This document shows positions 44,771 to 55,177 of a stretch of DNA of 64,000 bases, in pieces. A program made the position numbers and the translations under genes. The DNA lies in assembly GCF_024502345.1 (NCBI RefSeq), contig NZ_JALDNN010000001.1; one strand, written 5' to 3'. Position 1 is the first letter of the stretch; every line of letters starts with the position of its first letter. This DNA comes from Escherichia coli (GTDB lineage Bacteria > Pseudomonadota > Gammaproteobacteria > Enterobacterales > Enterobacteriaceae). The notes under the pieces were generated by a model. The model saw nothing but the letters and a program-made list of their open reading frames with translations. It had not been told where the DNA came from and did not search any database.

Positions 44771-47755
44771 ATGCCACGGCGACAGATACTGAGCAGCGAA
44801 GAGCAGGAACGCTTACTGGTTATACCAGATGATGAAATTATTCTGACCCGAATGTGTTTTCTGAACGAACCGGATATTGCGCTCATTAATAAGCACCGAA
44901 GGCCAGCGAATCGCCTGGGCTTTGCTGTATTACTCTGTTATCTGCGTGGACCTGGATTTATTCCGGACAAAAGCAGTGCTCCTCACAATGGCGTTGTATC
45001 CAGGGTTGCTTCCCGACTGAAACTTCAGCCTGATTTATGGCCGGAATATGCATCCAGAGAGCAAACCCGCTGGGAACATCTGACCGAACTTTATCGCTAC
45101 CTGGAACTATCCCCGTTCAGCCGGTCAATGCAAAAAGACTGTATCCGTCATCTGCACCCCTATGCCATGCGAACTGACAAAGGATTTATGCTGGCGGAAG
45201 AAATGCTCAGCTGGCTACATAACAATAATGTTATTTTCCCTTCTGTTGAAGTGATCGAACGGACGCTTGCCGAAGTCGTCACGCTCGCTAACAGATCGGT
45301 ATTTTCGACACTTACCGCGCAACTGGAAAAGCAGCATAAATCAGCACTCGACAGCCTGCTCATATCAGAGGGTGAACAACCTTCCCGTCTGGCATGGCTG
45401 CTACAGCCTCCGGGTAAAATAAACGGTAAAAATGTGCTGCAACATATCGACCGGCTTAATTCCATCGCTGCGCTGGGGTTGCCTGATGGTATTGCACTTT
45501 CCGTTCACCAGAACAGGTTGCTTAAACTGGCGCGTGAGGGCCGGAAAATGAGCAGCAGGGACCTGGCAAAATTCACCGATGTCAGACGTTACGCTACGCT
45601 GGTTTGTATAATAACAGAGGCCAGGGCCACCCTGACTGACGAAGTGATTGATCTGCACGAGCGTATCCTGGGTAGTCTGTTCAGCAGGGCAAAACGCACG
45701 CAGGCCGAACGGCTCCAGCAAACGGGAAAGCTTATTCAGAGCAAGCTGAAGCAGTACGTTACCGTCGGGCAGGCGTTACTTAACGCCAGAGAATCCGGGG
45801 AAGATCCCTGGACTGCAATAGAAGATGTCCTTCCCTGGCAGGAATTCATCAACAGCGTGGAAGAAACGCGGTTTCTTTCCCGTAAGGGCAATTTCGACGC
45901 GCTTCATCTGATCACCGAAAAATACAGTACGTTGCGTAAATATGCCCCGCGTATGCTGTCAGCATTGCAGTTCATGGCGACACCTGCGGCGCAGGCGCTC
46001 AGCGATGCGCTGGACACCATAACGGAAATGTACCGTAAACAACTTCGTAAAGTGCCGCCATCAGCGCCAACAGGGTTTATCCCTGAAAGCTGGCGAAAAC
46101 TGGTGCTCACGCCTTCAGGCATCGACCGCAAGTACTACGAGTTTTGCGTACTGAATGAACTCAAGGGTGCATTACGTTCCGGTGATATCTGGGTAAAAGG
46201 ATCGCGCCGCTACAAAAATTTTGATGATTATCTCATCCCGACTGCTGAGTTTGAGAAATCCCGACATAATGACCAGTTACAGTTGGCCGTTCAGACCGAT
46301 AGCCAGGCATACCTTCAGGCCCGTATGACTCTTCTTGCATCTCGGCTGGAAGAAGTTAACGCGATGGCGCTTGCCGGTGATTTGCCCGATGTAGATATCT
46401 CAGATAAAGGCGTAAAAATCACTCCACTGGAGAACAGCGTTCCTTCAGGTGTTTCGCCCTTTGCAGATTTGGTCTATGGCATGCTTCCCCATCCGAAAAT
46501 TACGGAGATACTGGAAGAAGTTGATAGCTGGACGGGATTTACGCGTCACTTCGCGCACCTCAAAAATAATAACGTCAGACCAAAAGACGGAAGACTGTTG
46601 CTGACCACCATTCTGGCTGACGGCATCAACCTTGGGCTGACAAAAATGGCGGAATCCTGCCCTGGGGCCACAAGATCGTCACTCGAAGGTATTCAGACAT
46701 GGTACATCAGGGATGAAACTTATTCAGCGGCACTGGCCGAGCTGGTCAACGCACAGAAAGAGCGGCCTCTGGCCGCATTCTGGGGCGACGGGACAACATC
46801 GTCGTCAGACGGGCAGAACTTTCGGGTAGGCAGTCACGGACGTTATGCCGGTCAGGTCAATCTTAAATATGGTCAGGAGCCGGGCGTGCAGATTTATACG
46901 CATATCTCAGACCAATACAGCCCGTTCTACGCCAAAGTGATCAGCCGGGTGCGCGACTCAACCCACGTGCTTGATGGCCTGCTGTACCATGAAAGCGATC
47001 TGGAAATTACCGAGCATTACACCGATACCGCAGGCTTCACTGAACATGTTTTCGCCCTGATGCACCTGCTGGGATTCGCTTTTGCGCCAAGGATCCGTGA
47101 TCTTCATGACAAGCGGCTGTTTATTCATGGAAAGGCCGAGCGCTATCCGGGGCTTCAGTCTGTCATATCAACAACCTGCCTGAATATCAAAGACATTGAG
47201 TCGCACTGGGATGAGGTATTGCGCCTGGCAACCTCGATTAAGCAGGGGACAGTCACCGCATCACTGATGATGAAAAAGTTAGCCAGTTACCCAAAACAGA
47301 ATGGACTTGCCAAAGCGCTGAGAGAGATTGGCCGCATCGAACGGACACTATTTATGCTGGACTGGTTCCGTGATCCCGGTCTGCGCCGACGCGTGCAGGC
47401 GGGGCTGAATAAGGGTGAGGCCCGTAATGCCCTTGCGCGAGCGGTCTTTTTGCACCGTCTGGGTGAAATAAGGGATCGTGGGCTGGAGAATCAGAGTTAT
47501 CGCGCCAGCGGGCTGACATTACTGACAGCAGCGATCACGTTGTGGAACACGGTATATATAGAAAGAGCTATTGAGTCACTAAAACGAAAGGGTATCCCGA
47601 TAAATGAGCAACTGGTCTCTCATCTTTCTCCCCTGGGCTGGGAACATATCAATCTGAGTGGAGATTACGTCTGGCGTAATAATCTTAAGCTGGGATCCGG
47701 AAAATACCGCTCATTACGTACAGTCGATACCGCTTTGTACAAAAAACAGTCTTAG
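44771..47755 (+). CDS. tnpA: Tn3-family DDE transposase
   Basis: 994-aa ORF; stop codon lies inside the terminal repeat. Confidence 0.85.
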   Translation: MPRRQILSSEEQERLLVIPDDEIILTRMCFLNEPDIALINKHRRPANRLGFAVLLCYLRGPGFIPDKSSAPHNGVVSRVASRLKLQPDLWPEYASREQTRWEHLTELYRYLELSPFSRSMQKDCIRHLHPYAMRTDKGFMLAEEMLSWLHNNNVIFPSVEVIERTLAEVVTLANRSVFSTLTAQLEKQHKSALDSLLISEGEQPSRLAWLLQPPGKINGKNVLQHIDRLNSIAALGLPDGIALSVHQNRLLKLAREGRKMSSRDLAKFTDVRRYATLVCIITEARATLTDEVIDLHERILGSLFSRAKRTQAERLQQTGKLIQSKLKQYVTVGQALLNARESGEDPWTAIEDVLPWQEFINSVEETRFLSRKGNFDALHLITEKYSTLRKYAPRMLSALQFMATPAAQALSDALDTITEMYRKQLRKVPPSAPTGFIPESWRKLVLTPSGIDRKYYEFCVLNELKGALRSGDIWVKGSRRYKNFDDYLIPTAEFEKSRHNDQLQLAVQTDSQAYLQARMTLLASRLEEVNAMALAGDLPDVDISDKGVKITPLENSVPSGVSPFADLVYGMLPHPKITEILEEVDSWTGFTRHFAHLKNNNVRPKDGRLLLTTILADGINLGLTKMAESCPGATRSSLEGIQTWYIRDETYSAALAELVNAQKERPLAAFWGDGTTSSSDGQNFRVGSHGRYAGQVNLKYGQEPGVQIYTHISDQYSPFYAKVISRVRDSTHVLDGLLYHESDLEITEHYTDTAGFTEHVFALMHLLGFAFAPRIRDLHDKRLFIHGKAERYPGLQSVISTTCLNIKDIESHWDEVLRLATSIKQGTVTASLMMKKLASYPKQNGLAKALREIGRIERTLFMLDWFRDPGLRRRVQAGLNKGEARNALARAVFLHRLGEIRDRGLENQSYRASGLTLLTAAITLWNTVYIERAIESLKRKGIPINEQLVSHLSPLGWEHINLSGDYVWRNNLKLGSGKYRSLRTVDTALYKKQS

Positions 47756-47788
47756 CGTGGGATAATTTCCGTTTTCCAAGCGGACCCC
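47751..47788 (-). repeat. 38-bp terminal inverted repeat of the Tn3-family element
   Basis: Reverse complement reads GGGGTCCGCTTGGAAAACGGAAATTATCCCACGCTAAG. Confidence 0.85.
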
Positions 47789-47858: not shown

Positions 47859-48092
47859 TTGGCCCTCAAACCCCTCAACACCCTGATGGAACGTTTTTTT
47901 AGAAGTCTGAAAACAGAATGGGTGCCGGATAATGGATACGCTAATTTTAGCGAAGCCAGCACAGCGATAACGAATTACATAACGGGATATTACAGCCAGC
48001 TCAGACCTCATCAATATAACGGTAGTTTGACGCGGAATGAATCAGAACGATTGCTCTGGAAAAACTCTAAAGCCGTGGCCAACTATTGTTGA
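47859..48092 (+). pseudogene. IS3-family integrase (orfB) C-terminal remnant
   Basis: 77-aa ORF with the YYSQLRPHQYNG motif typical of IS3-family integrase C-termini. Confidence 0.5.
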
Positions 48093-48103
48093 CCACTACA
48101 CAT

Positions 48104-48571
48104 CTATTTTATAGGTAACCCCTTAAAAGATTTAATCTCCTTGATACTGAAACTGGTATTCATCTCCTTTATATTCCCAATTTTTCGTATCCTTATCATT
48201 GATACGTTGTGAAAATCATCCATATCTTTTACTACAAGATGCAGAAGATAGTCGTATCTTCCGGAGATATTATGACAGGCAATTACATTATCAATCTTCA
48301 TTATTTCTGCCTCAAAATATTGCATGCACTCCTCGGAATGAAGATCTAATGTAATATTCATGAATGCATAAAAATTGTATCCAAGGCTTTTCGGTTCGAT
48401 AAAAGCCCGATAGTTTTTTATCACTTCCTGCTCTAAAAACTTTAGCCGTTTCCAGCAGGCTGGAGGGGAAAGAAAAACACGCTTGGCAATCTCAGCGTTG
48501 TTCAGCCTGCCATCTTCCTGCAAGAAATTTAAAATCTGCATATCAACTTTGTCAAGCTTTACCATGTTCAA
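48104..48571 (-). CDS. Lrp/AsnC-family transcriptional regulator
   Basis: 155 aa; N-terminal HTH (LDKVDMQILNFLQEDGRLNNAEIAKRV) and C-terminal ligand-binding fold. Confidence 0.75.
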   Translation of the reverse strand: MNMVKLDKVDMQILNFLQEDGRLNNAEIAKRVFLSPPACWKRLKFLEQEVIKNYRAFIEPKSLGYNFYAFMNITLDLHSEECMQYFEAEIMKIDNVIACHNISGRYDYLLHLVVKDMDDFHNVSMIRIRKIGNIKEMNTSFSIKEIKSFKGLPIK

Positions 48572-48773
48572 CCTCCTGTGATAGCAATCATATTCGTAAT
48601 TTTATGAAATAAAATTAACCAAATCAATAAAAACAAGAAATAAGATAAGCCATAAATTGTAAAAATAGTTAATTTTAAAAAGATAATTAATATACTTACC
48701 GGGTAGAATCATTTATGAAGTGCAAACCTCTGTAAATAATTACCATAAAATATCCTCACACAGGAATATACCT

Positions 48774-50081
48774 ATGACCATATTGGAACAGAACATCGAC
48801 AGGGCCTCATTATCGCCAGAAGAGTGGAAAAAACTAACCCGATTTGACAGTACAGATGTAGGATGGATTATCATAAGCATAGGTATGGCTATCGGCGCCG
48901 GGATTGTGTTTTTACCGGTCCAGGTGGGGCTTATTGGATTGTGGGTATTCCTGCTTTCTTCCATCATTGGTTATCCGGCCATGTACCTGTTTCAAAGATT
49001 GTTTATCAATACGCTGGCAGATTCACGAGAGTGTAAAGACTATCCCGGTGTCATCGAGGGCTATCTGGGAAAAAACTGGGGAATGCTCCTCGGTCTGCTC
49101 TACTTTCTCATGCTGGTCATCTGGATATTCGCCTACCCTACGGCGTTGACTAACGATACAGCGTCGTATTTACACACGTTTGGCTTAACTGAGGGTCTTT
49201 TATCAGAGAACCCTTTCTATGGCCTAATTCTTATTACATTTCTTGTGCTTATTGCTTCACGTAGTGAAGAGCTCTTGTTCAGGATTTCCTCTTTCATGGT
49301 GTTATCAAAACTGGTGGTAGTGCTTATCCTGGGGTTGATGATGGTCAGCATGTGGGACCTCTCCAAAAACATCGGTTCATTCCCTTCTTTTAGTATTTTA
49401 ATCAAAAACGCCATTATCACCTTGCCATTTACGTTGACATCAATCCTGTTTATTCAGTCTTTGAGTCCGATGGTAATTTCATATCGTGCAAAAAACAAAT
49501 CTATAGAAGTGGCAAGATATAAAGCGCTAAGAGCAATGAATATCGCTTTTGGTACACTATTCATCGTTGTTTTCTTTTATGCATTATCATTCACTTTCGC
49601 CCTCGGTCACGATGAAGCTGTCAAAGCCTACGAGCAAAATATTTCAGCACTGGCTATTGCCGCACAGTTTATTGAAGGAGATGCAGCAAAGTATGTGACG
49701 CCAGTTGGTGTTGCATTGAATATCTTTGCCCTGATGACTGCCTTCTTCGGCGTTTACCTCGGGTTCAAAGAGGCTGTACAGGGACTGGCGATGAACGCAT
49801 TGACCCGTTTTATACCTTCAGAGAAAATCAATAAAAAAACGCTTAATGTTGGTATTGTCATTTTCACTATTGCCATCGCCTGGGGGGCAATCGTTCTGAA
49901 CCTGCCGGTTCTGCTATTCACCTCAATCTGCAGCCCCATTTTCGGCATTGTTGGTTGCTTAATCCCTGCTTATCTGGTTTACAAGGTACCCTCCCTTCAC
50001 CGATATAAAGGGTTTTCTCTGTATCTGATCATCTTTACTGGCATCCTGCTCTGTATTTCTCCGTTCCTGAAATTCATTTAA
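48774..50081 (+). CDS. HAAAP-family amino-acid transporter (serine/threonine/aromatic type)
   Basis: ORF 48720..50081; motifs AIGAGIVFLP and AYLVYKVPSLHRYKG resemble recalled TdcC/SdaC; polytopic. Confidence 0.7.
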   Translation: MTILEQNIDRASLSPEEWKKLTRFDSTDVGWIIISIGMAIGAGIVFLPVQVGLIGLWVFLLSSIIGYPAMYLFQRLFINTLADSRECKDYPGVIEGYLGKNWGMLLGLLYFLMLVIWIFAYPTALTNDTASYLHTFGLTEGLLSENPFYGLILITFLVLIASRSEELLFRISSFMVLSKLVVVLILGLMMVSMWDLSKNIGSFPSFSILIKNAIITLPFTLTSILFIQSLSPMVISYRAKNKSIEVARYKALRAMNIAFGTLFIVVFFYALSFTFALGHDEAVKAYEQNISALAIAAQFIEGDAAKYVTPVGVALNIFALMTAFFGVYLGFKEAVQGLAMNALTRFIPSEKINKKTLNVGIVIFTIAIAWGAIVLNLPVLLFTSICSPIFGIVGCLIPAYLVYKVPSLHRYKGFSLYLIIFTGILLCISPFLKFI

Positions 50082-50112
50082 ACAAACATATATGTCCAAA
50101 GAAGGTTAAATT

Positions 50113-51318
50113 ATGAAGTACAATTTTGATGAAATTATCAACAGAAAAAATACTGATGCCCTGAACTACGATGGGTGGAGACAATATATATTCAAGGCCG
50201 ACAAGAGTGCCCGCTTTGACTTTAAGGACGATGAATTTGTCAGAATGTGGGTCGCTGATATGGATTTTGCGACACCTCCGGAAATCCTTGCAGCGATTCA
50301 GGAGAGGCTTGATAAAAAAATACTCGGTTACACAAAAGTTTACGATGATGAGTACTATCATATTTTCCACAACTGGTGCCAGAGACGCTATGACTGGAAT
50401 ATAGATACCACAGAGATCGTGCTTTCACCGGGCATTATTCCTGCACTTAACCGTCTGGTACCGTTACTGACACAACAGGATGAAAGTGTGTTGATCAATA
50501 CACCATCCTATACGCCGTTTAAGCAGGCTGGAGACTATAGCTATCGTCGAGTGATCTGTTCTGATTTGCTGAAACAGGACAATGAATACATTATTGACTT
50601 CAACGATATGGAGAAAAAACTAACCGATCCTTCTCTAAATATTAAGCTGTTCATTTTATCCAATCCGCAAAATCCAACCGGGATGGTCTGGTCAGAACAA
50701 GAATTAATGAGAATGGGGCAGTTGTGCCTTAAAAACAATGTCTGGATCATTTCAGACGAAATACATTGTGATTTACTGAGAAATGGGATCAATCATATCC
50801 CGATGGCAAAACTGTTCCCAGACACTGATAAGATCATCACCTGTATGGCACCAAGCAAAACCTTTAATCTTGCCGGAAATCTGATGTCCCATATTTTTAT
50901 TAAAAATGAAAAGGTCAGAAAAGAATGGTTACGTCTTTATGATGAGTTTCTTTCACCACTGAGTCTGGCTGCGACCAAAGCGGCCTGGTCCCGGTGCGAC
51001 GAGTGGCTGGAACAATTAAAACACTATCTTGATGATAACTTCAGACTGGTAGAAAAATTTACCCAGGAACACTTTCCTGACGCAAACTTTAAAATTCCCG
51101 ATGCAACTTATCTGGCATGGATAAATATTGAGAAATACCTGCCACCGCAGGTAGACAGACAACAGCTTTCTCTCTATTTCGCCAACCAGACGGGAATACT
51201 GCTTGAAGGCGGGAACATGTTTGTAAGCAATGGAGAGGGTTACATACGGATTAATCTTGCCTGTCCACGCGCCGTGATACAAGAAGGATTAGAGAGAATA
51301 AGAAAAGCACTGAAATAG
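50113..51318 (+). CDS. PLP-dependent C-S lyase, MalY/PatB type
   Basis: 401 aa, aminotransferase class I/II fold with MalY/PatB-like N-terminus MKYNFDEIINRKNTDALNYDGW. Confidence 0.7.
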   Translation: MKYNFDEIINRKNTDALNYDGWRQYIFKADKSARFDFKDDEFVRMWVADMDFATPPEILAAIQERLDKKILGYTKVYDDEYYHIFHNWCQRRYDWNIDTTEIVLSPGIIPALNRLVPLLTQQDESVLINTPSYTPFKQAGDYSYRRVICSDLLKQDNEYIIDFNDMEKKLTDPSLNIKLFILSNPQNPTGMVWSEQELMRMGQLCLKNNVWIISDEIHCDLLRNGINHIPMAKLFPDTDKIITCMAPSKTFNLAGNLMSHIFIKNEKVRKEWLRLYDEFLSPLSLAATKAAWSRCDEWLEQLKHYLDDNFRLVEKFTQEHFPDANFKIPDATYLAWINIEKYLPPQVDRQQLSLYFANQTGILLEGGNMFVSNGEGYIRINLACPRAVIQEGLERIRKALK

Positions 51319-51507
51319 TAAATCCCTGAAAATTTCAGCCTGATCGTCCAAAAGGTCGCAGTTTAAACAATGCGACCTTTATACCGGATAATTTAGCATG
51401 TTGAACCGATTTTCGGAGACTCTCTATCGCGCTGGACGGCTCTGCATGTACATTGTCGCCTGAAAAATAATATCAGGGATATAAATAGCCTGTTAATACC
51501 TCGTTTC

Positions 51508-52565
51508 GGCTTTGTTGAATAAATCAGATTTCGGGTAAGTCTCCCCCGTAGCGGGTTGTGTTTTCAGGCAATACGCACGCTTTCAGGCATACCTGCTTTC
51601 GTCATTTTGTTCAGCGCTCGTACCAGGGCCATAGCCTCTGCAACCTGACCATCGTAGTCACGCAGTGTCAGTGAACCCCCGAACAGCTGTTTTACCCGGT
51701 ACATCGCCGTTTCCGCTATCGAGCGACGGTTGTAATCTGTTGTCCATTTCCACCGCGCATTACTCCCGGTCATTCGCTGATTAGCCACTGCACGGTTACG
51801 GTCTGCATATTCACCGGGCCAGTAACCCGCACCTTTTCGGGGAGGGATAAGCGCGCTGATTTTCTTACGCCGCAGTTCATCGTGACATAGCCGGGTATCG
51901 TAAGCGCCATCGGCGGCGGCTGACCTGATTTTCCGGTGGGTTTGCCGGATTAACCCGGGGAAGGCCTCTGAGTCCGTAACGTTGTTCAGCGACAGGTCAG
52001 CGCAGATGATTTCATGTGTTTTACTGTCAACGGCGAGATGCAGCTTACGCCAGATACGGCGGCGTTCCTGGCCATGCTTTTTGACTTTCCACTCGCCTTC
52101 ACCGAAGACCTTCAGCCCGGTGGAATCAATTACCAGGTGTGCGATTTCACCCCGGGTGGGCGTTTTGAAACTGACATTAACCGACTTTGCCCGCCTGCTG
52201 ACACAGCTGTAATCCGGGCAGCGTAGCGGAACGTTCATCAGAGAAAAAATGGAATCAATAAAGCCCTGCGCAGCGCGCAGGGTCAGCCTGAATACGCGTT
52301 TAATGACCAAGCACAGTCGTGATGGCAAGGTCAGAATAGCGCTGAGGTCTGCCTCGTGAAGAAGGTGTTGCTGACTCATACCAGGCCTGAATAGCTTCAT
52401 CATCCAGCCAGAAAGTTATGGAGCCACGGTTGATGAGGGCTTTATTGTAGGTGGGCCAGTTGGTGATTTTGAACTTTTGCTTTGCCACGGAACGGTCTGC
52501 GTTGTCGGGAAGATACGTGATCTGATCCTTCAACTCAGCAAAAGTTCGATTTATTCAACAAAGCC
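51508..52565 (-). mobile_element. IS903-type insertion sequence, copy 4, 1058 bp, same frameshift as copy 3, intact 9-bp target duplication
   Basis: Flanks cctcgtttc (51499..51507) and cctcgtttc (52566..52574); same extra base as copy 3. Confidence 0.9.
51564..52533 (-). pseudogene. IS903-type transposase, frameshifted
   Basis: ORFs 51564..52403 and 52300..52533. Confidence 0.85.
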
Positions 52566-52598
52566 CCTCGTTTCCTCTCTTCATGACACCCTGACTCA

Positions 52599-53135
52599 TT
52601 AATATAGTGTCACAGCATTGTGAGGGCACTGGACAACGCATTCGCCACAACCATCACAGCGTTCGTTGTCAGCCGACATCCGTCCAGACTCATTAATAAA
52701 GCAAGCCTGTCGTGGGCATACATCCACGCACTGTTTACACTGTCTGACAGGATTCACACAGGCAGAGTTACAGAACACCGGGCGCAGTCCGGTATCAAAA
52801 CGAGACTGCACGCGTAGCGCGTCACTCGAACATGCTGCGATACACAAACCACAGCCATCACAACTGGCATATTCAATCATCAGTTGCGGGTAACCGTCTT
52901 CATGTCTGGACAGGACTCCCATTGGGCAGACATCAATGCACTGACTACATTGGGTACACTGGGTTATGAACTCCGCATCAGGAACCGCCCCTGGCGGCAA
53001 CGAATGTCCCAGCCGGGTAGACAGTACTTCTGGCGTTGTGTGCTTTGCCGCGCTGACAAACGCACGAAACAGTCCGCGCCGACTGACGTGCCGGTGAGCC
53101 ATCAATTCATGATAATATTTCTCTGATTTGTTCAT
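52599..53135 (-). CDS. ferredoxin-type protein with four 4Fe-4S-binding cysteine motifs
   Basis: 178 aa with four cysteine clusters (CTQCSQCIDVCP, CDGCGLCIAACS, CKQCVDVCP, CDGCGECVVQCP). Confidence 0.7.
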   Translation of the reverse strand: MNKSEKYYHELMAHRHVSRRGLFRAFVSAAKHTTPEVLSTRLGHSLPPGAVPDAEFITQCTQCSQCIDVCPMGVLSRHEDGYPQLMIEYASCDGCGLCIAACSSDALRVQSRFDTGLRPVFCNSACVNPVRQCKQCVDVCPRQACFINESGRMSADNERCDGCGECVVQCPHNAVTLY

Positions 53136-53728
53136 CCGAAATACAGCCGCTTCACCGCAGGTTGCAACGCCCGTTGCTGTTGCAAATCCTGCAAATAGCG
53201 CGTGGTCACGGCGGCAAGGCGAGCATAGAACGGACTCACCCTGTTGCCCTGCAGACGTTCAAGATAGCGATATCCCCACGGTAACAAATAAACCTCTAAC
53301 AGCTGATTAACTGCCGCATCTTTTCCAGCATCAAGTATCGCACTGCAGGCTAACAACATCAGCCCAAACTGATCTTCCGGCTCATTTTGACCCGAATTAA
53401 AAGTCATTCCCTGAGACTGCAGAAACGCCCGGTACTTAGCGGTGGTATTGCCCATTAGCAGGTTATCGCGTTCCAGCCAGACAGATCCCCAGGGTGGCAC
53501 GGGCATCTCGCCCTGCCCTTCAAACAGCACGGAGAATTGCCATGCCAGTTCGTCATTATCGGGAAACGGCCAGTCTGCGCACAGTGAAGCTGTTCCCGCA
53601 GGGTCGCTCCATGGGTACAGCTCCGACAGAGTGGGCAGACAATCGAAAAGTGCTTTCACCTCTGGTCGTTCCGGAGAGTAGTAAAACAGTGCACCGAGGA
53701 TCCTCGGTAATACAATATTGGGGGACAT
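53132..53728 (-). CDS. TorD/DmsD-family redox-enzyme maturation chaperone
   Basis: 198 aa; LGALFYY and PPWGSVW...NEPEDQFG motifs resemble recalled DmsD at about 40 percent. Confidence 0.75.
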   Translation of the reverse strand: MSPNIVLPRILGALFYYSPERPEVKALFDCLPTLSELYPWSDPAGTASLCADWPFPDNDELAWQFSVLFEGQGEMPVPPWGSVWLERDNLLMGNTTAKYRAFLQSQGMTFNSGQNEPEDQFGLMLLACSAILDAGKDAAVNQLLEVYLLPWGYRYLERLQGNRVSPFYARLAAVTTRYLQDLQQQRALQPAVKRLYFG

Positions 53729-53771
53729 CCTGAGTTCTCCTGAAAACAGAGCGGCTACAGCCGCTCACAGA

Positions 53772-54545
53772 TTACATCGGCAACGTCCACAGGTTGTAGA
53801 ATGCGATCCTACCCACCAGTTCCGCAGCGATAACCACCAGTGACGTGGTCGCCAGAACGGCCACATTAGTTTTGAGTCGTACCCAGGCCACCACACCGAC
53901 AATGCCGACAGCTAGCAGTACAACCTGAGCAGTGAACCAACTGGATTGAGCCGCAGTTAGCACCCCATCAGCATCCATAAGCGTCAAAATATAGCCTGGA
54001 CGCAGGCAGAAGCTGACCAGAATCGCCAGCACACTCACCAGCAACCCCAGGCGCAGACCAAACAGTCCGGCCAGAATGCCACCTCCGATCATCGGAGTCA
54101 GTACCATCATCACCGTAGTGTAAGATGTCCGCCAGGTGACCACCGTCGGCAACTGATAGATTTGCGGGATGGCGAAGATAAAAACCACCCCCACCGCGGC
54201 CGCCAGCCACACCAGTCCTTTACATAACGAAGCCGCTCCACGATTGAGAAGCAACCCCAGTGCGCCCAGCCCGCCAAGTGTCGCAAACACTGCCGATAAC
54301 ACGATTTCGTTGCTCATCGGTGAATGGCCCACTCGCAGCAACATATTCAATGCTCGTAAAGGCTGGCCTACATGGAAAATGCCCAGCAACACCCCAACGC
54401 CAAACAGACACATCGCGGAGAAAAGACCAACGGCCATACGCTGCCTGTCAATCTGCCCCAGGGTGCCGCCAATCAGCAACAGAATAAACGCGCCAACTGC
54501 GCTCTGAGTAAAGACGGTAAAAAAGACCAGAGGTAACTCATGCAT
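53772..54545 (-). CDS. DmsC-type membrane anchor subunit
   Basis: About 257 aa polytopic membrane protein directly downstream of the Fe-S subunit. Confidence 0.7.
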   Translation of the reverse strand: MHELPLVFFTVFTQSAVGAFILLLIGGTLGQIDRQRMAVGLFSAMCLFGVGVLLGIFHVGQPLRALNMLLRVGHSPMSNEIVLSAVFATLGGLGALGLLLNRGAASLCKGLVWLAAAVGVVFIFAIPQIYQLPTVVTWRTSYTTVMMVLTPMIGGGILAGLFGLRLGLLVSVLAILVSFCLRPGYILTLMDADGVLTAAQSSWFTAQVVLLAVGIVGVVAWVRLKTNVAVLATTSLVVIAAELVGRIAFYNLWTLPM

Positions 54546-55164
54546 TGCGCACCTCACTCATGTTCATGATGGCCCCTTCCTTGTCTCCCGTCGGGCGGGC
54601 CTTCGGATGGGGTTTAATAATAAGGTTAGGATGAGTAAACGACGCGGCGGGCAGCGGCGCGATTTCATTCTCAGTGCCATACTTCTTCCGTAACTCATCG
54701 ATCGGCCCGAAATCCAGCGCGCGCTGTGGACAAGAGTCCACGCAAATTGGTCGCAGATTTTTCTCCAGTCGATCAAGGCAACCATCGCACTTACGCATCA
54801 CTTTGGCCTGAGCATCAAATTGTGGCGCGCCATACGGGCAGCGCATTTCGCAATAACGGCATCCGACACAAATATTGTCATCGACCAGCACCAGTCCGTC
54901 CTCTTCACGTTTGTGCATCGCTCCGGTAGGACATCCGGAGACACAAACCGGTTCATCACAGTGGTTACAGGCAATAGAGAGGTAGTAGGTAAAAGTGTCG
55001 TTGTGCCAGCTTTCTCCTTCTTTCGCCCAACTTCCGCCACCATATTCATATACCCGACGGAATTTCGGGCCCACGTCCAGATCTTTATTATCCTTGCAAC
55101 TGACCTGGCAGGTTTTGCAGCCTGAGCAACGCGAGGAGTCAACATAAAAGCCATACTGTTTCAT
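54538..55164 (-). CDS. DmsB-type iron-sulfur subunit
   Basis: 208 aa; MKQYGFYVDSSRCSGCKTC and three further cysteine clusters; resembles recalled DmsB/YnfG but not identical. Confidence 0.8.
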   Translation of the reverse strand: MKQYGFYVDSSRCSGCKTCQVSCKDNKDLDVGPKFRRVYEYGGGSWAKEGESWHNDTFTYYLSIACNHCDEPVCVSGCPTGAMHKREEDGLVLVDDNICVGCRYCEMRCPYGAPQFDAQAKVMRKCDGCLDRLEKNLRPICVDSCPQRALDFGPIDELRKKYGTENEIAPLPAASFTHPNLIIKPHPKARPTGDKEGAIMNMSEVRNA

Positions 55165-55177
55165 TGCGGATCACTCC

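What the first reader, a model, noticed from the sequence alone, without database searches (positions are those of the whole stretch)
48104..51318. Acquired amino-acid uptake and degradation module: Lrp-type regulator, HAAAP transporter and MalY-type C-S lyase
A divergently transcribed Lrp/AsnC regulator precedes a HAAAP-family amino-acid permease and a PLP-dependent C-S lyase. The block is conspicuously AT-rich and is bounded by an IS3-family remnant with a Tn3-type repeat on one side and IS903 copy 4 on the other. The logic (amino-acid-responsive regulator, importer, beta-lyase) fits uptake and cleavage of a sulfur-containing or S-conjugated amino acid, but the substrate cannot be read from the sequence.
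Basis: inference. Interest (0 to 1): 0.55.

Follow-up and report, generated by a model that had tools for sequence, protein, structure and literature searches.

The report
Acquired cysteine-type importer and C-S lyase operon
This E. coli carries a rare, horizontally acquired three-gene unit (a regulator, a copy-like relative of the cysteine importer CyuP, and a PatB carbon-sulfur lyase) that in other bacteria travels with garlic/onion thiosulfinate-tolerance genes, so it probably takes up and splits cysteine or plant-derived cysteine derivatives.

Summary
The three genes exist as described and are intact: an Lrp/AsnC regulator (48104-48565, -), a HAAAP permease (48774-50081, +) and a PatB C-S lyase (50113-51318, +). 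GC is 0.40, against 0.51 in the flanks.

- **Permease:** 75% identical to E. coli CyuP, the validated cysteine-specific importer. It forms a separate branch that always sits next to a PatB lyase, never next to CyuA.
- **Lyase:** belongs to the long-loop PatB subgroup, with FnaPatB1, ShPatB and the lyases of thiosulfinate-tolerance (alt/TTG) clusters.
- **Linkage:** in four diverged lineages the regulator-lyase core lies beside or near DsbA/CMD/OsmC/TetR/DMT genes. None of 80 background PatB loci shows this.
- **Boundary:** IS903 is not an edge. It is a simple insertion with a 9-bp duplication, and it separates the lyase from a DmsABC-type reductase operon that adjoins it in a sister E. coli.

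Best reading: a substrate-induced import and beta-elimination system for cysteine-type amino acids. It is a PLP-based variant of cyuPA, tied ecologically to reactive organosulfur stress. The exact substrate is unproven. I rate it a new variant of a known kind, of moderate interest.

The parts
47751..47788 (.). 38-bp Tn3-family terminal inverted repeat at the end of the Tn3-family tnpA gene (44771-47755); left-hand mobile-element junction
   Evidence: Sequence read (reverse complement GGGGTCCGCTTGGAAAACGGAAATTATCCCACGCTAAG). The sister record has IS5075 inserted here.
47859..48092 (+). IS3-family transposase C-terminal remnant; homology with the Klebsiella plasmids starts just after it, at about 48097
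   Evidence: NF033516 residues 314-367 of 369, E=3e-13. Plasmid matches begin at query position 298, which is window 48097.
48104..48565 (-). Lrp/AsnC-family transcriptional regulator (153 aa), transcribed divergently from the operon; presumed amino-acid-responsive activator
   Evidence: Pfam HTH_AsnC-type, HTH_24 and AsnC_trans_reg. 34% identical to Lrp and 30% to CyuR/DecR. 81-82% identical in the Proteus, Providencia and L100/L103 versions.
48566..48773 (.). AT-rich divergent promoter/operator region; no CyuR box and no AltR box
48774..50081 (+). CyuP(YhaO)-like HAAAP amino-acid:H+ importer (435 aa), a paralogous branch of the cysteine importer
   Evidence: 75% identity and 87% positives over 425 aa to K-12 CyuP; 25% to TdcC. 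Distinct branch at 78-100% versus a plateau at 72-75% for canonical CyuPs.
50113..51318 (+). PatB-family PLP-dependent cysteine-S-conjugate beta-lyase (401 aa), long N-terminal-loop subgroup; 31 nt after the permease, so presumably co-transcribed
   Evidence: TIGR04350 360.5 bits, above cut-off 340. PDB 7QUG FnaPatB1 505 bits and ShPatB 419 bits. K249, N187, D215 and R379 invariant, and the loop insertion is present.
51351..51380 (+). 10-bp perfect hairpin (AAAGGTCGCA...TGCGACCTTT) 33 nt after the lyase stop codon; candidate terminator in the convergent intergenic region
   Evidence: RNA fold of 51336-51395 gives -16.9 kcal/mol. It was not picked up by the consensus scan because the loop is 10 nt.
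51508..52565 (-). IS903B copy, a simple insertion with 9-bp target duplication cctcgtttc (51499-51507 and 52566-52574); not an island boundary
   Evidence: The sister record is continuous across the site, and 9 nt overlap between the two alignment blocks.
52599..57250 (-). Neighbouring DmsABC/YnfE-type S-/N-oxide or selenate reductase operon (NapF-like ferredoxin, DmsD, anchor, B subunit, A subunit), convergent with the lyase; the A subunit has lost its N-terminus to a second IS903. This is context and is not shown to be part of the module.
   Evidence: 727 of 813 aa retained. The operon travels without the triad on other plasmids.

Best explanation
The unit is a substrate-inducible import-and-cleave operon for cysteine-type amino acids. 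The proposed steps are:
1. The divergent Lrp/AsnC regulator senses the amino acid and activates the two-gene operon (inferred).
2. The CyuP-like HAAAP permease brings the substrate in (inferred from 75% identity to a validated cysteine importer).
3. The PatB PLP enzyme performs alpha,beta-elimination at the C-beta-S bond, giving 2-aminoacrylate (then pyruvate plus ammonium) and a sulfur leaving group (family chemistry established; not shown for this enzyme).

Architecturally it is a PLP-based, oxygen-tolerant counterpart of cyuR-cyuPA. I commit to the physiological substrates being S-substituted cysteines linked to Allium/Brassica organosulfur chemistry: S-alk(en)yl-cysteines, their sulfoxides, or S-alk(en)ylthio-cysteine adducts formed by thiosulfinates. 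L-cysteine itself is a probable additional substrate. The module would then be the uptake/catabolic arm of the thiosulfinate (alt/TTG-type) tolerance gene repertoire with which it repeatedly co-travels, while being regulated separately from it.
For: **Shown:**
- The permease is 75% identical to CyuP over its full length. [quoted passage not shown]
- 229 positions are invariant across both transporter groups, and only 14 positions differ in a fixed way.
- The lyase exceeds the PatB cut-off and keeps the catalytic residues and the elongated loop of FnaPatB1/ShPatB. Those enzymes act on hydrophobic Cys S-conjugates such as S-allyl-cysteine (PMC11203769).
- PatB-family enzymes have high measured alliinase activity (PMC13197776).
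- The lyase is 55-56% identical to lyases in canonical alt clusters on an Erwinia plasmid from green onion and on Klebsiella plasmids, and 47% identical to the Burkholderia (onion) TTG-cluster lyase.

**Linkage:**
- The triad lies about 6.5 kb from TetR/CMD/Trx/DMT/DsbA/GorA/OsmC in the sister E. coli.
- It directly abuts homologous DsbA/EamA/CMD/TetR/OsmC genes (60-80% identical) in L100-L103, where a RidA enamine deaminase follows the lyase.
- It lies about 5-9 kb from TetR/OsmC/CMD/SDR/OYE/DsbA in Providencia L006, and the lyase is next to DsbA/OsmC in a Bacteroidota conjugative element.
- None of 80 background PatB loci has any of these neighbours.

**Paralogy:** native cyuPA is present in 5407 of 5426 E. 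coli genomes, and Proteus has both its own YhaO and the triad permease. That points to a distinct role.
Against: - No biochemical or genetic data exist for this protein set.
- CyuP was reported to be cysteine-specific, and the TM1/TM6 segments are almost unchanged. That fits plain L-cysteine at least as well as bulkier conjugates.
- In Pantoea, the alt lyase plus exporter did not complement allicin tolerance on their own.
- The window itself lacks the alt-like genes; they are replaced after IS903 at about 57362.
- In Proteus the triad stands alone between accC and panF.
- No AltR-type operator is present at the triad promoter.
- Linkage on IS-rich mobile DNA can arise from hitch-hiking.
Confidence: 0.5

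Rival explanations
1. Plain L-cysteine system. The permease imports L-cysteine exactly like CyuP, and the PatB enzyme acts as a cysteine desulfhydrase, giving pyruvate, ammonium and H2S. This would be an oxygen- and oxidant-tolerant substitute for the Fe-S enzyme CyuA, used for catabolism, cysteine detoxification or H2S-based protection. Any link to thiosulfinate genes would be indirect (H2S quenching) or incidental.
For: 75% identity to cysteine-specific CyuP with conserved core segments. Zhou & Imlay document that enterobacteria mix regulator, importer and desulfidase, including the PLP-dependent O2-tolerant CdsH. The regulator is of the same family as CyuR.
Against: The lyase belongs to the long-loop subgroup whose characterised members prefer hydrophobic S-conjugates. 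Hosts already carry cyuPA. The regulator is no closer to CyuR than to Lrp, and no CyuR box is present. The fixed substitutions at residues 120-129 of the permease branch hint at altered specificity.
Confidence: 0.3
2. One pathway with the neighbouring DmsABC-type reductase. The reductase would reduce cysteine sulfoxides or thiosulfinates as respiratory acceptors, and the triad would import and cleave the reduced or unreduced product.
For: The lyase and the NapF-like gene are directly adjacent in the sister E. coli, and the same junction survives on the Klebsiella plasmids. E. coli isolates reduce SMCSO and glucoraphanin (PMC8137612).
Against: The reductase operon travels without the triad on many E. 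coli and Salmonella plasmids. The Proteus, Providencia, L100-L103 and Bacteroidota versions have no such reductase. The genes are convergent, so they are not co-transcribed. In the window the catalytic subunit is truncated while the triad is intact.
Confidence: 0.1
3. Sulfur or methionine salvage. The lyase would work as a cystathionine/cystine/lanthionine beta-lyase (MetC-like), supplying homocysteine or sulfide from imported thioether amino acids.
For: PatB and MalY are classically annotated as cystathionine beta-lyases, and many database names say so.
Against: A CyuP-type permease is an unlikely carrier for the diamino-dicarboxylates cystathionine or cystine. The neighbours are thiol-stress genes and not met/cys biosynthesis genes. 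ShPatB and FnaPatB1 are specialised for S-conjugates.
Confidence: 0.06
4. Hydroxy-amino-acid (serine/threonine/D-serine) uptake, with the lyase acting mainly as a MalY-like regulatory protein or as a silent passenger.
For: The best NCBIfam model is named 'serine/threonine transporter'. YhaO has been described as a D-serine transporter (cited). A racemase-family gene lies near the module on the Klebsiella plasmid.
Against: The score is below that model's cut-off, and identity to TdcC is only 25%. Permease and lyase are tightly paired in four lineages despite shuffling of gene order. RidA follows the lyase in two lineages, which implies real beta-elimination flux.
Confidence: 0.04

Closest known systems
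E. coli CyuR-CyuP-CyuA cysteine import/desulfidation system (yhaOM, decR)
   Same: An Lrp/AsnC-type regulator together with a HAAAP importer (75% identical to CyuP), immediately followed by an enzyme that converts a cysteine-type substrate to pyruvate, ammonia and a sulfur product.
   Different: The enzyme is a PLP fold-type I PatB lyase, whereas CyuA is an O2-sensitive Fe-S desulfidase. The regulator is adjacent and divergent, only 30% identical to CyuR, and no CyuR box is present. The permease is a separate paralogous branch. The unit is mobile and low-GC.
C-S lyase plus DMT/EamA 'cysteine-family exporter' pair of thiosulfinate-tolerance clusters (Pantoea alt, Burkholderia TTG, Pseudomonas allicin-resistance islands)
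   Same: The lyase is from the same long-loop PatB clade (47-56% identity) and is physically linked to DsbA, Trx, CMD/AhpD, OsmC, TetR and Gor genes.
   Different: Here the lyase is paired with an importer and an Lrp-type regulator, whereas the alt clusters pair it with an exporter under AltR control. No AltR-type box is present at its promoter. The importer arm is not mentioned in the alt/TTG papers searched.
FnaPatB1 (PDB 7QUG) and Staphylococcus hominis ShPatB (6QP1/6QP2)
   Same: These are the best structural relatives (505 and 419 bits; 54% and 47% identity), with the same elongated N-terminal loop and catalytic residues. They are cysteine-S-conjugate beta-lyases.
   Different: They are known as stand-alone enzymes or from other contexts. 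The neighbourhoods of these two reference enzymes were not examined here. Substrate preference of the window enzyme is untested.
Bacterial 'alliinase' PatBs (BcPatB, LdPatB, MePatB)
   Same: Same KO/family (patB, K14155), with measured conversion of alliin to allicin.
   Different: They are short-loop PatBs at about 35-40% identity (PDB hits 8Y54, 9K71 and 3DZZ at 215-271 bits). They were studied as biocatalysts and not in a genomic uptake context.

Membership tests
PatB family C-S lyase (TIGR04350; MalY/PatB, K14155) | Whole-protein score above the curated family cut-off and above all aminotransferase models | tested here: met
   360.5 bits against a cut-off of 340. The next non-PatB models score 118 bits or less. 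Pfam Aminotran_1_2.
PatB family C-S lyase (TIGR04350; MalY/PatB, K14155) | PLP-lysine in the S-x-K-T/A-F-N motif plus conserved Asn/Asp/Arg of fold-type I beta-lyases | tested here: met
   K249, N187, D215 and R379 are invariant in alignment A2 with FnaPatB1, ShPatB and the C. difficile PatB.
PatB family C-S lyase (TIGR04350; MalY/PatB, K14155) | Beta-elimination activity on cysteine S-conjugates | not testable with these tools
   Requires an enzyme assay. A RidA gene follows the orthologue in L100-L104 and L008, which is indirect support.
Long-loop PatB subgroup (FnaPatB1/ShPatB type) | Insertion of about 11 residues in the N-terminal active-site loop relative to short PatBs | tested here: met
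   Present in the window enzyme, its triad orthologues and the alt/TTG lyases; absent from C. difficile PatB.
HAAAP family (TC 2.A.42), CyuP/YhaO subfamily | Full-length similarity to validated CyuP clearly above that to other HAAAP members | tested here: met
   75% identity to CyuP versus 25% to TdcC. TIGR00814 scores 437 bits, below its 526-bit cut-off.
HAAAP family (TC 2.A.42), CyuP/YhaO subfamily | Orthology with host cyuP (same branch, same partner CyuA) | tested here: not met
   Separate branch: triad versus canonical identity is at most 74.7%, while canonical CyuPs share at least 79.3% with each other. There are 14 fixed differences. In every locus examined the partner is PatB and never CyuA.
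HAAAP family (TC 2.A.42), CyuP/YhaO subfamily | Cysteine-specific transport | not testable with these tools
   Needs labelled-substrate uptake and competition assays.
CyuR (DecR/YbaO) regulon | A regulator orthologous to CyuR and a CyuR operator (GAAwAAATTGTxGxxATTTsyCC) | tested here: not met
   30% identity to CyuR and 34% to Lrp. No match to the motif with up to 3 mismatches anywhere in the window.
Lrp/AsnC transcription factor family | N-terminal AsnC-type HTH plus C-terminal AsnC_trans_reg (RAM) ligand domain | tested here: met
   PF13404 at 1.9e-15 and PF01037 at 1.1e-16. It is not an Lrp equivalog (108 bits against a cut-off of 233).
Thiosulfinate tolerance (alt/TTG) gene cluster | Clustered thiol-redox genes (DsbA, Trx, CMD/AhpD, OsmC, OYE, SDR, Gor) with a TetR-type AltR | tested here: not met
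   Absent from the window. Present 6.5 kb away in the sister E. coli island and adjacent to the triad in L100-L103.
Thiosulfinate tolerance (alt/TTG) gene cluster | A C-S lyase homologous to the cluster lyase | tested here: met
   55-56% identity to the Erwinia and Klebsiella-plasmid alt-cluster lyases and 47% to the Burkholderia TTG lyase.
Thiosulfinate tolerance (alt/TTG) gene cluster | AltR-type operator (CTAC-N6-GTAG core palindrome) at the promoter | tested here: not met
   Boxes were found at the TetR, Trx-DMT and OsmC promoters of L001, L100, L103 and L099, but none in the triad intergenic regions.
Thiosulfinate tolerance (alt/TTG) gene cluster | Confers allicin/thiosulfinate tolerance | not testable with these tools
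   Needs zone-of-inhibition or growth assays.

The most novel reading that the evidence does not exclude
The triad is a dedicated bacterial uptake-and-lyase system for plant cysteine sulfoxides (SMCSO, alliin) or for the S-alk(en)ylthio-cysteine adducts that thiosulfinates form. If so, it would reveal the long-unexplained role of the C-S lyase in thiosulfinate-tolerance clusters. Carried on mobile DNA in gut Enterobacterales (E. coli, Klebsiella, Proteus, Providencia), it would let them feed on, or generate reactive sulfur species from, dietary Allium/Brassica compounds.
Probability: 0.35. Interest if true: 0.7.

Novelty: new variant of a known kind. Interest (0 to 1): 0.5.

Why it matters
Two open questions become directly testable.

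1. The C-S lyase in allicin/thiosulfinate-tolerance clusters of onion and garlic pathogens has no assigned role. In Pantoea, the lyase and its exporter partner did not complement tolerance on their own. The same lyase clade is found here hard-wired to a CyuP-type importer, an amino-acid-sensing regulator and sometimes RidA. That points to an imported cysteine derivative as its substrate.
2. Zhou and Imlay noted that enterobacteria combine cysteine regulators, importers and desulfidases in puzzling ways. This is a further, mobile combination using an oxygen-tolerant PLP enzyme.

Because the unit rides on IS- and Tn3-rich DNA alongside resistance plasmids, it may affect H2S, thiol or thiosulfinate production from diet in the gut.

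Tried and rejected
1. **Genome scan.** It did not identify the donor, but the 80 loci served as a background set.
2. **CyuR operator.** The search was negative, so I do not file the unit under the CyuR regulon.
3. **AltR operators.** AltR-box and IR2 searches found boxes at alt-like promoters but none at the triad promoter. Direct AltR control is therefore rejected. The expected chance count for the box is about 1.7 per 44 kb, so only hits located at promoters were considered.
4. **Coupling to the reductase.** Functional coupling to the adjacent Dms-type reductase was considered and downgraded, because the operon travels independently and is truncated in the window.
5. **Promoter and terminator scan.** The consensus scan was uninformative in this AT-rich DNA: 16 promoter-like sites against 10.9 expected.
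6. **Footprinting.** Phylogenetic footprinting of the intergenic region gave only short AT-rich conserved blocks.
7. **IS903 as the right boundary.** Rejected on the target-site duplication and the continuous sister sequence.
Full report
**Observation.** The window's first 16 kb is ordinary E. coli core chromosome (lsr, uxaB, sad; 98.9% identity to thousands of genomes). The finding lies in an IS-rich mosaic island downstream of it. Three intact ORFs occupy 48104-51318.

- The regulator on the minus strand has AsnC-type HTH and RAM ligand domains.
- The permease matches TIGR00814 (STP/HAAAP) at 437 bits and Pfam Trp_Tyr_perm weakly.
- The third protein scores 360.5 bits on TIGR04350 'PatB family C-S lyase', above the curated cut-off of 340 and far above any aminotransferase model.

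GC is 0.36, 0.43 and 0.42 for the three genes, against 0.51 for the core and the neighbouring operon. RefSeq starts (ATG 48565 and ATG 48774) are preferable to the longest-ORF starts. Permease and lyase are 31 nt apart, and a 10-bp perfect hairpin follows the lyase. The IS3 remnant and the Tn3-family terminal repeat to the left are real.

**Boundaries.** IS903 at 51508-52565 is flanked by a 9-bp direct duplication, cctcgtttc. A near-identical E. coli chromosome (NZ_LR536431.1) is the only one of 5426 complete genomes with this DNA. It is continuous across that site, and the two alignment blocks overlap by exactly those 9 nt. So IS903 inserted into a convergent intergenic region, and the acquired DNA continues into a NapF-like/DmsD/DmsC/DmsB/DmsA-YnfE-type reductase operon. 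In the window, a second IS903 has removed the N-terminus of that operon's catalytic subunit. In the sister record the island then carries TetR, CMD (AhpD-like), thioredoxin, a DMT transporter, DsbA, glutathione reductase and OsmC. These genes are missing from the window. Eight Klebsiella plasmids hold the triad at about 94% identity, with a truncated remnant of the NapF-like gene still attached.

**The permease.** It is 75% identical (87% positives) over 425 residues to E. coli K-12 CyuP/YhaO, and only 25% identical to TdcC. CyuP is experimentally a cysteine-specific, high-flux catabolic importer, co-transcribed with the desulfidase CyuA and activated by the Lrp-type regulator CyuR (PMC9040844).

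A database search shows a small branch of 434-435-aa proteins at 78-100% identity. Below it is a broad plateau at 72-75% made of canonical CyuP/YhaO proteins from all Enterobacterales, including Proteus' own YhaO. In an alignment of 7 triad-type, 18 canonical and 3 Orbaceae-type sequences, 229 positions are invariant across the triad-type and canonical groups. Only 14 positions are fixed differently, mostly by conservative changes, with a cluster at residues 120-129. Native cyuPA is present in 5407 of 5426 E. coli genomes. The window's gene is therefore an additional, paralogous CyuP-type importer.

**The lyase.** Its closest solved structures are FnaPatB1 (7QUG, 505 bits) and Staphylococcus hominis ShPatB (419 bits), followed by short PatBs, cystalysin and MalY. 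It shares the roughly 11-residue N-terminal loop insertion of FnaPatB1 and ShPatB, together with the PLP lysine (K249) and conserved N187, D215 and R379. That loop has been proposed to favour cysteine conjugates with hydrophobic S-substituents such as S-allyl-cysteine (PMC11203769). Separately, patB-encoded enzymes have high measured alliinase activity, converting alliin to allicin (PMC13197776).

**The regulator.** It is equally distant from Lrp (34%) and CyuR (30%). No CyuR operator is present in the window. It is the most conserved component across lineages, at 81-82% identity.

**Neighbourhoods.**

- In Proteus terrae the same three genes in the same order (regulator 81%, permease 91%, lyase 77%) sit alone between accC and panF.
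- In Providencia the order is lyase, a 50%-identical HAAAP permease, then the regulator (82%). In one locus, TetR, OsmC, CMD, SDR, OYE and DsbA lie about 5-9 kb away.
- On a Bacteroidota conjugative element an AsnC regulator, RidA and the lyase (63%) abut DsbA and two OsmC genes.
- In metagenomic contigs L100-L104 (permease 78%, lyase 63%, regulator 82%) the order is regulator | permease | lyase | RidA | DsbA | EamA | CMD | TetR | OsmC, on Tn3/mer DNA. These neighbours are 60-80% identical to the sister E. coli island's genes.
- Lyases at about 55% identity on hundreds of Klebsiella, E. coli and Enterobacter plasmids, and those of Erwinia from green onion (55%) and Burkholderia gladioli from onion (47%), lie in canonical thiosulfinate-tolerance clusters.
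- As a control, none of 80 PatB loci at 33-49% identity has a CyuP-like permease, an Lrp-like regulator or a DsbA, OsmC, DMT, CMD or TetR homologue within 8 kb; a single locus had a weak (27%) thioredoxin match about 5 kb away.

**What is known.** Allicin-resistance islands in Pseudomonas and the alt and TTG clusters of Pantoea and Burkholderia contain a C-S lyase and a DMT 'cysteine-family exporter'. Their roles are unresolved: in Pantoea they did not complement tolerance on their own (PMC7119367; bioRxiv 2020.02.12.945675; bioRxiv 2024.01.24.577064). The alt literature I could search does not mention an Lrp regulator or an importer. AltR-type palindromes (CTAC-N6-GTAG core; PMC13178969) occur at the TetR, Trx-DMT and OsmC promoters in L001, L100, L103 and Erwinia, but not in the triad's own intergenic region. 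So the triad is physically linked to an AltR-type regulon but appears to be controlled separately.

**Mechanism.** The shown elements are the family assignments, the catalytic residues, the paralogy to CyuP and the recurrent linkage. The inferred sequence is as follows. The regulator senses an amino-acid effector and activates the operon. The permease imports a cysteine-type substrate. The PatB enzyme eliminates the sulfur substituent, giving 2-aminoacrylate; RidA is on hand for this intermediate in two lineages. The products are pyruvate, ammonium and H2S, a thiol, a sulfenic acid or a persulfide, depending on the substrate.

The long-loop lyase subgroup and the linkage make S-substituted cysteines from Allium/Brassica chemistry the most likely physiological substrates (confidence about 0.5). 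Plain L-cysteine is the main rival (about 0.3). It is favoured by the strong conservation of the permease core, and by the fact that a PLP enzyme would work where the O2-sensitive CyuA cannot. A joint pathway with the adjacent Dms-type reductase is less likely, because that operon moves independently and is broken in the window while the triad is intact.

**Verdict.** The unit is an uncharacterised variant of known systems: a cyuPA-type import/cleavage operon and the alt-cluster lyase. It is rare in E. coli and mobile. Its interest is moderate, and rests mainly on giving a concrete, testable handle on the role of the C-S lyase in thiosulfinate tolerance.

Noticed in passing
window 52599-57361 (- strand): A complete accessory DmsABC/YnfE-type molybdoenzyme operon with DmsD and a NapF-like ferredoxin. 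The catalytic subunit has lost its first ~86 residues to an IS903 insertion (727 of 813 aa retained). It is intact in NZ_LR536431.1. An 85.8%-identical version is widespread on E. coli and Salmonella plasmids, many from poultry. Its substrate is unknown.
   Followed up: partly
window 40268-41885 and about 43232-43700; L005-L007 6225-8074; L097 5025-7216: An MBL-fold hydrolase plus a GlxA/FtrA-type (DJ-1/AraC) regulator, with an ester cyclase in E. coli, recurs beside the Providencia triad and beside the plasmid-borne reductase operon. This suggests another small module of the same mobile gene pool.
   Followed up: no
L001 29974, 31333, 36123; L100 13874; L103 10634; L099 7811: AltR-like palindromes (for example the perfect CTATCTACCAGTTGGTAGATAG in L100) lie at promoters of the TetR, Trx-DMT and OsmC genes of alt-like clusters in E. 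coli, in metagenomic contigs and in Erwinia. This implies a conserved AltR-type regulon in clinical Enterobacterales.
   Followed up: partly
L010-L013; About 500 Klebsiella, E. coli, Enterobacter and Citrobacter plasmids carry an alt-like cluster (Trx, AraC, OYE, DsbA, SDR, hydrolase, Trx_9, EamA, PatB lyase). Thiosulfinate-tolerance-type genes are therefore common cargo of clinical plasmids.
   Followed up: partly
L002 10800-11501 (K. variicola plasmid pM142-3): An aspartate/glutamate racemase-family gene lies about 500 bp beyond the 3' end of the regulator gene. It is absent from the E. coli island, where the IS3 remnant replaces it.
   Followed up: no
window 47767 and 41897-43231: Structural differences from the sister E. 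coli record. The sister has IS5075 inserted in the Tn3-family terminal repeat, and the window does not. The window has an IS2-like element at 41897-43231 that the sister lacks. This shows ongoing IS-driven remodelling of the island.
   Followed up: partly
L008 17848-21209 (Bacteroidota conjugative element): Downstream of the AsnC-RidA-PatB-DsbA-OsmC group lie TauE, a pyridine-nucleotide disulfide oxidoreductase and an MBL-rhodanese fusion (persulfide-dioxygenase-like). This is a further sulfur-stress gene set on the same element.
   Followed up: no
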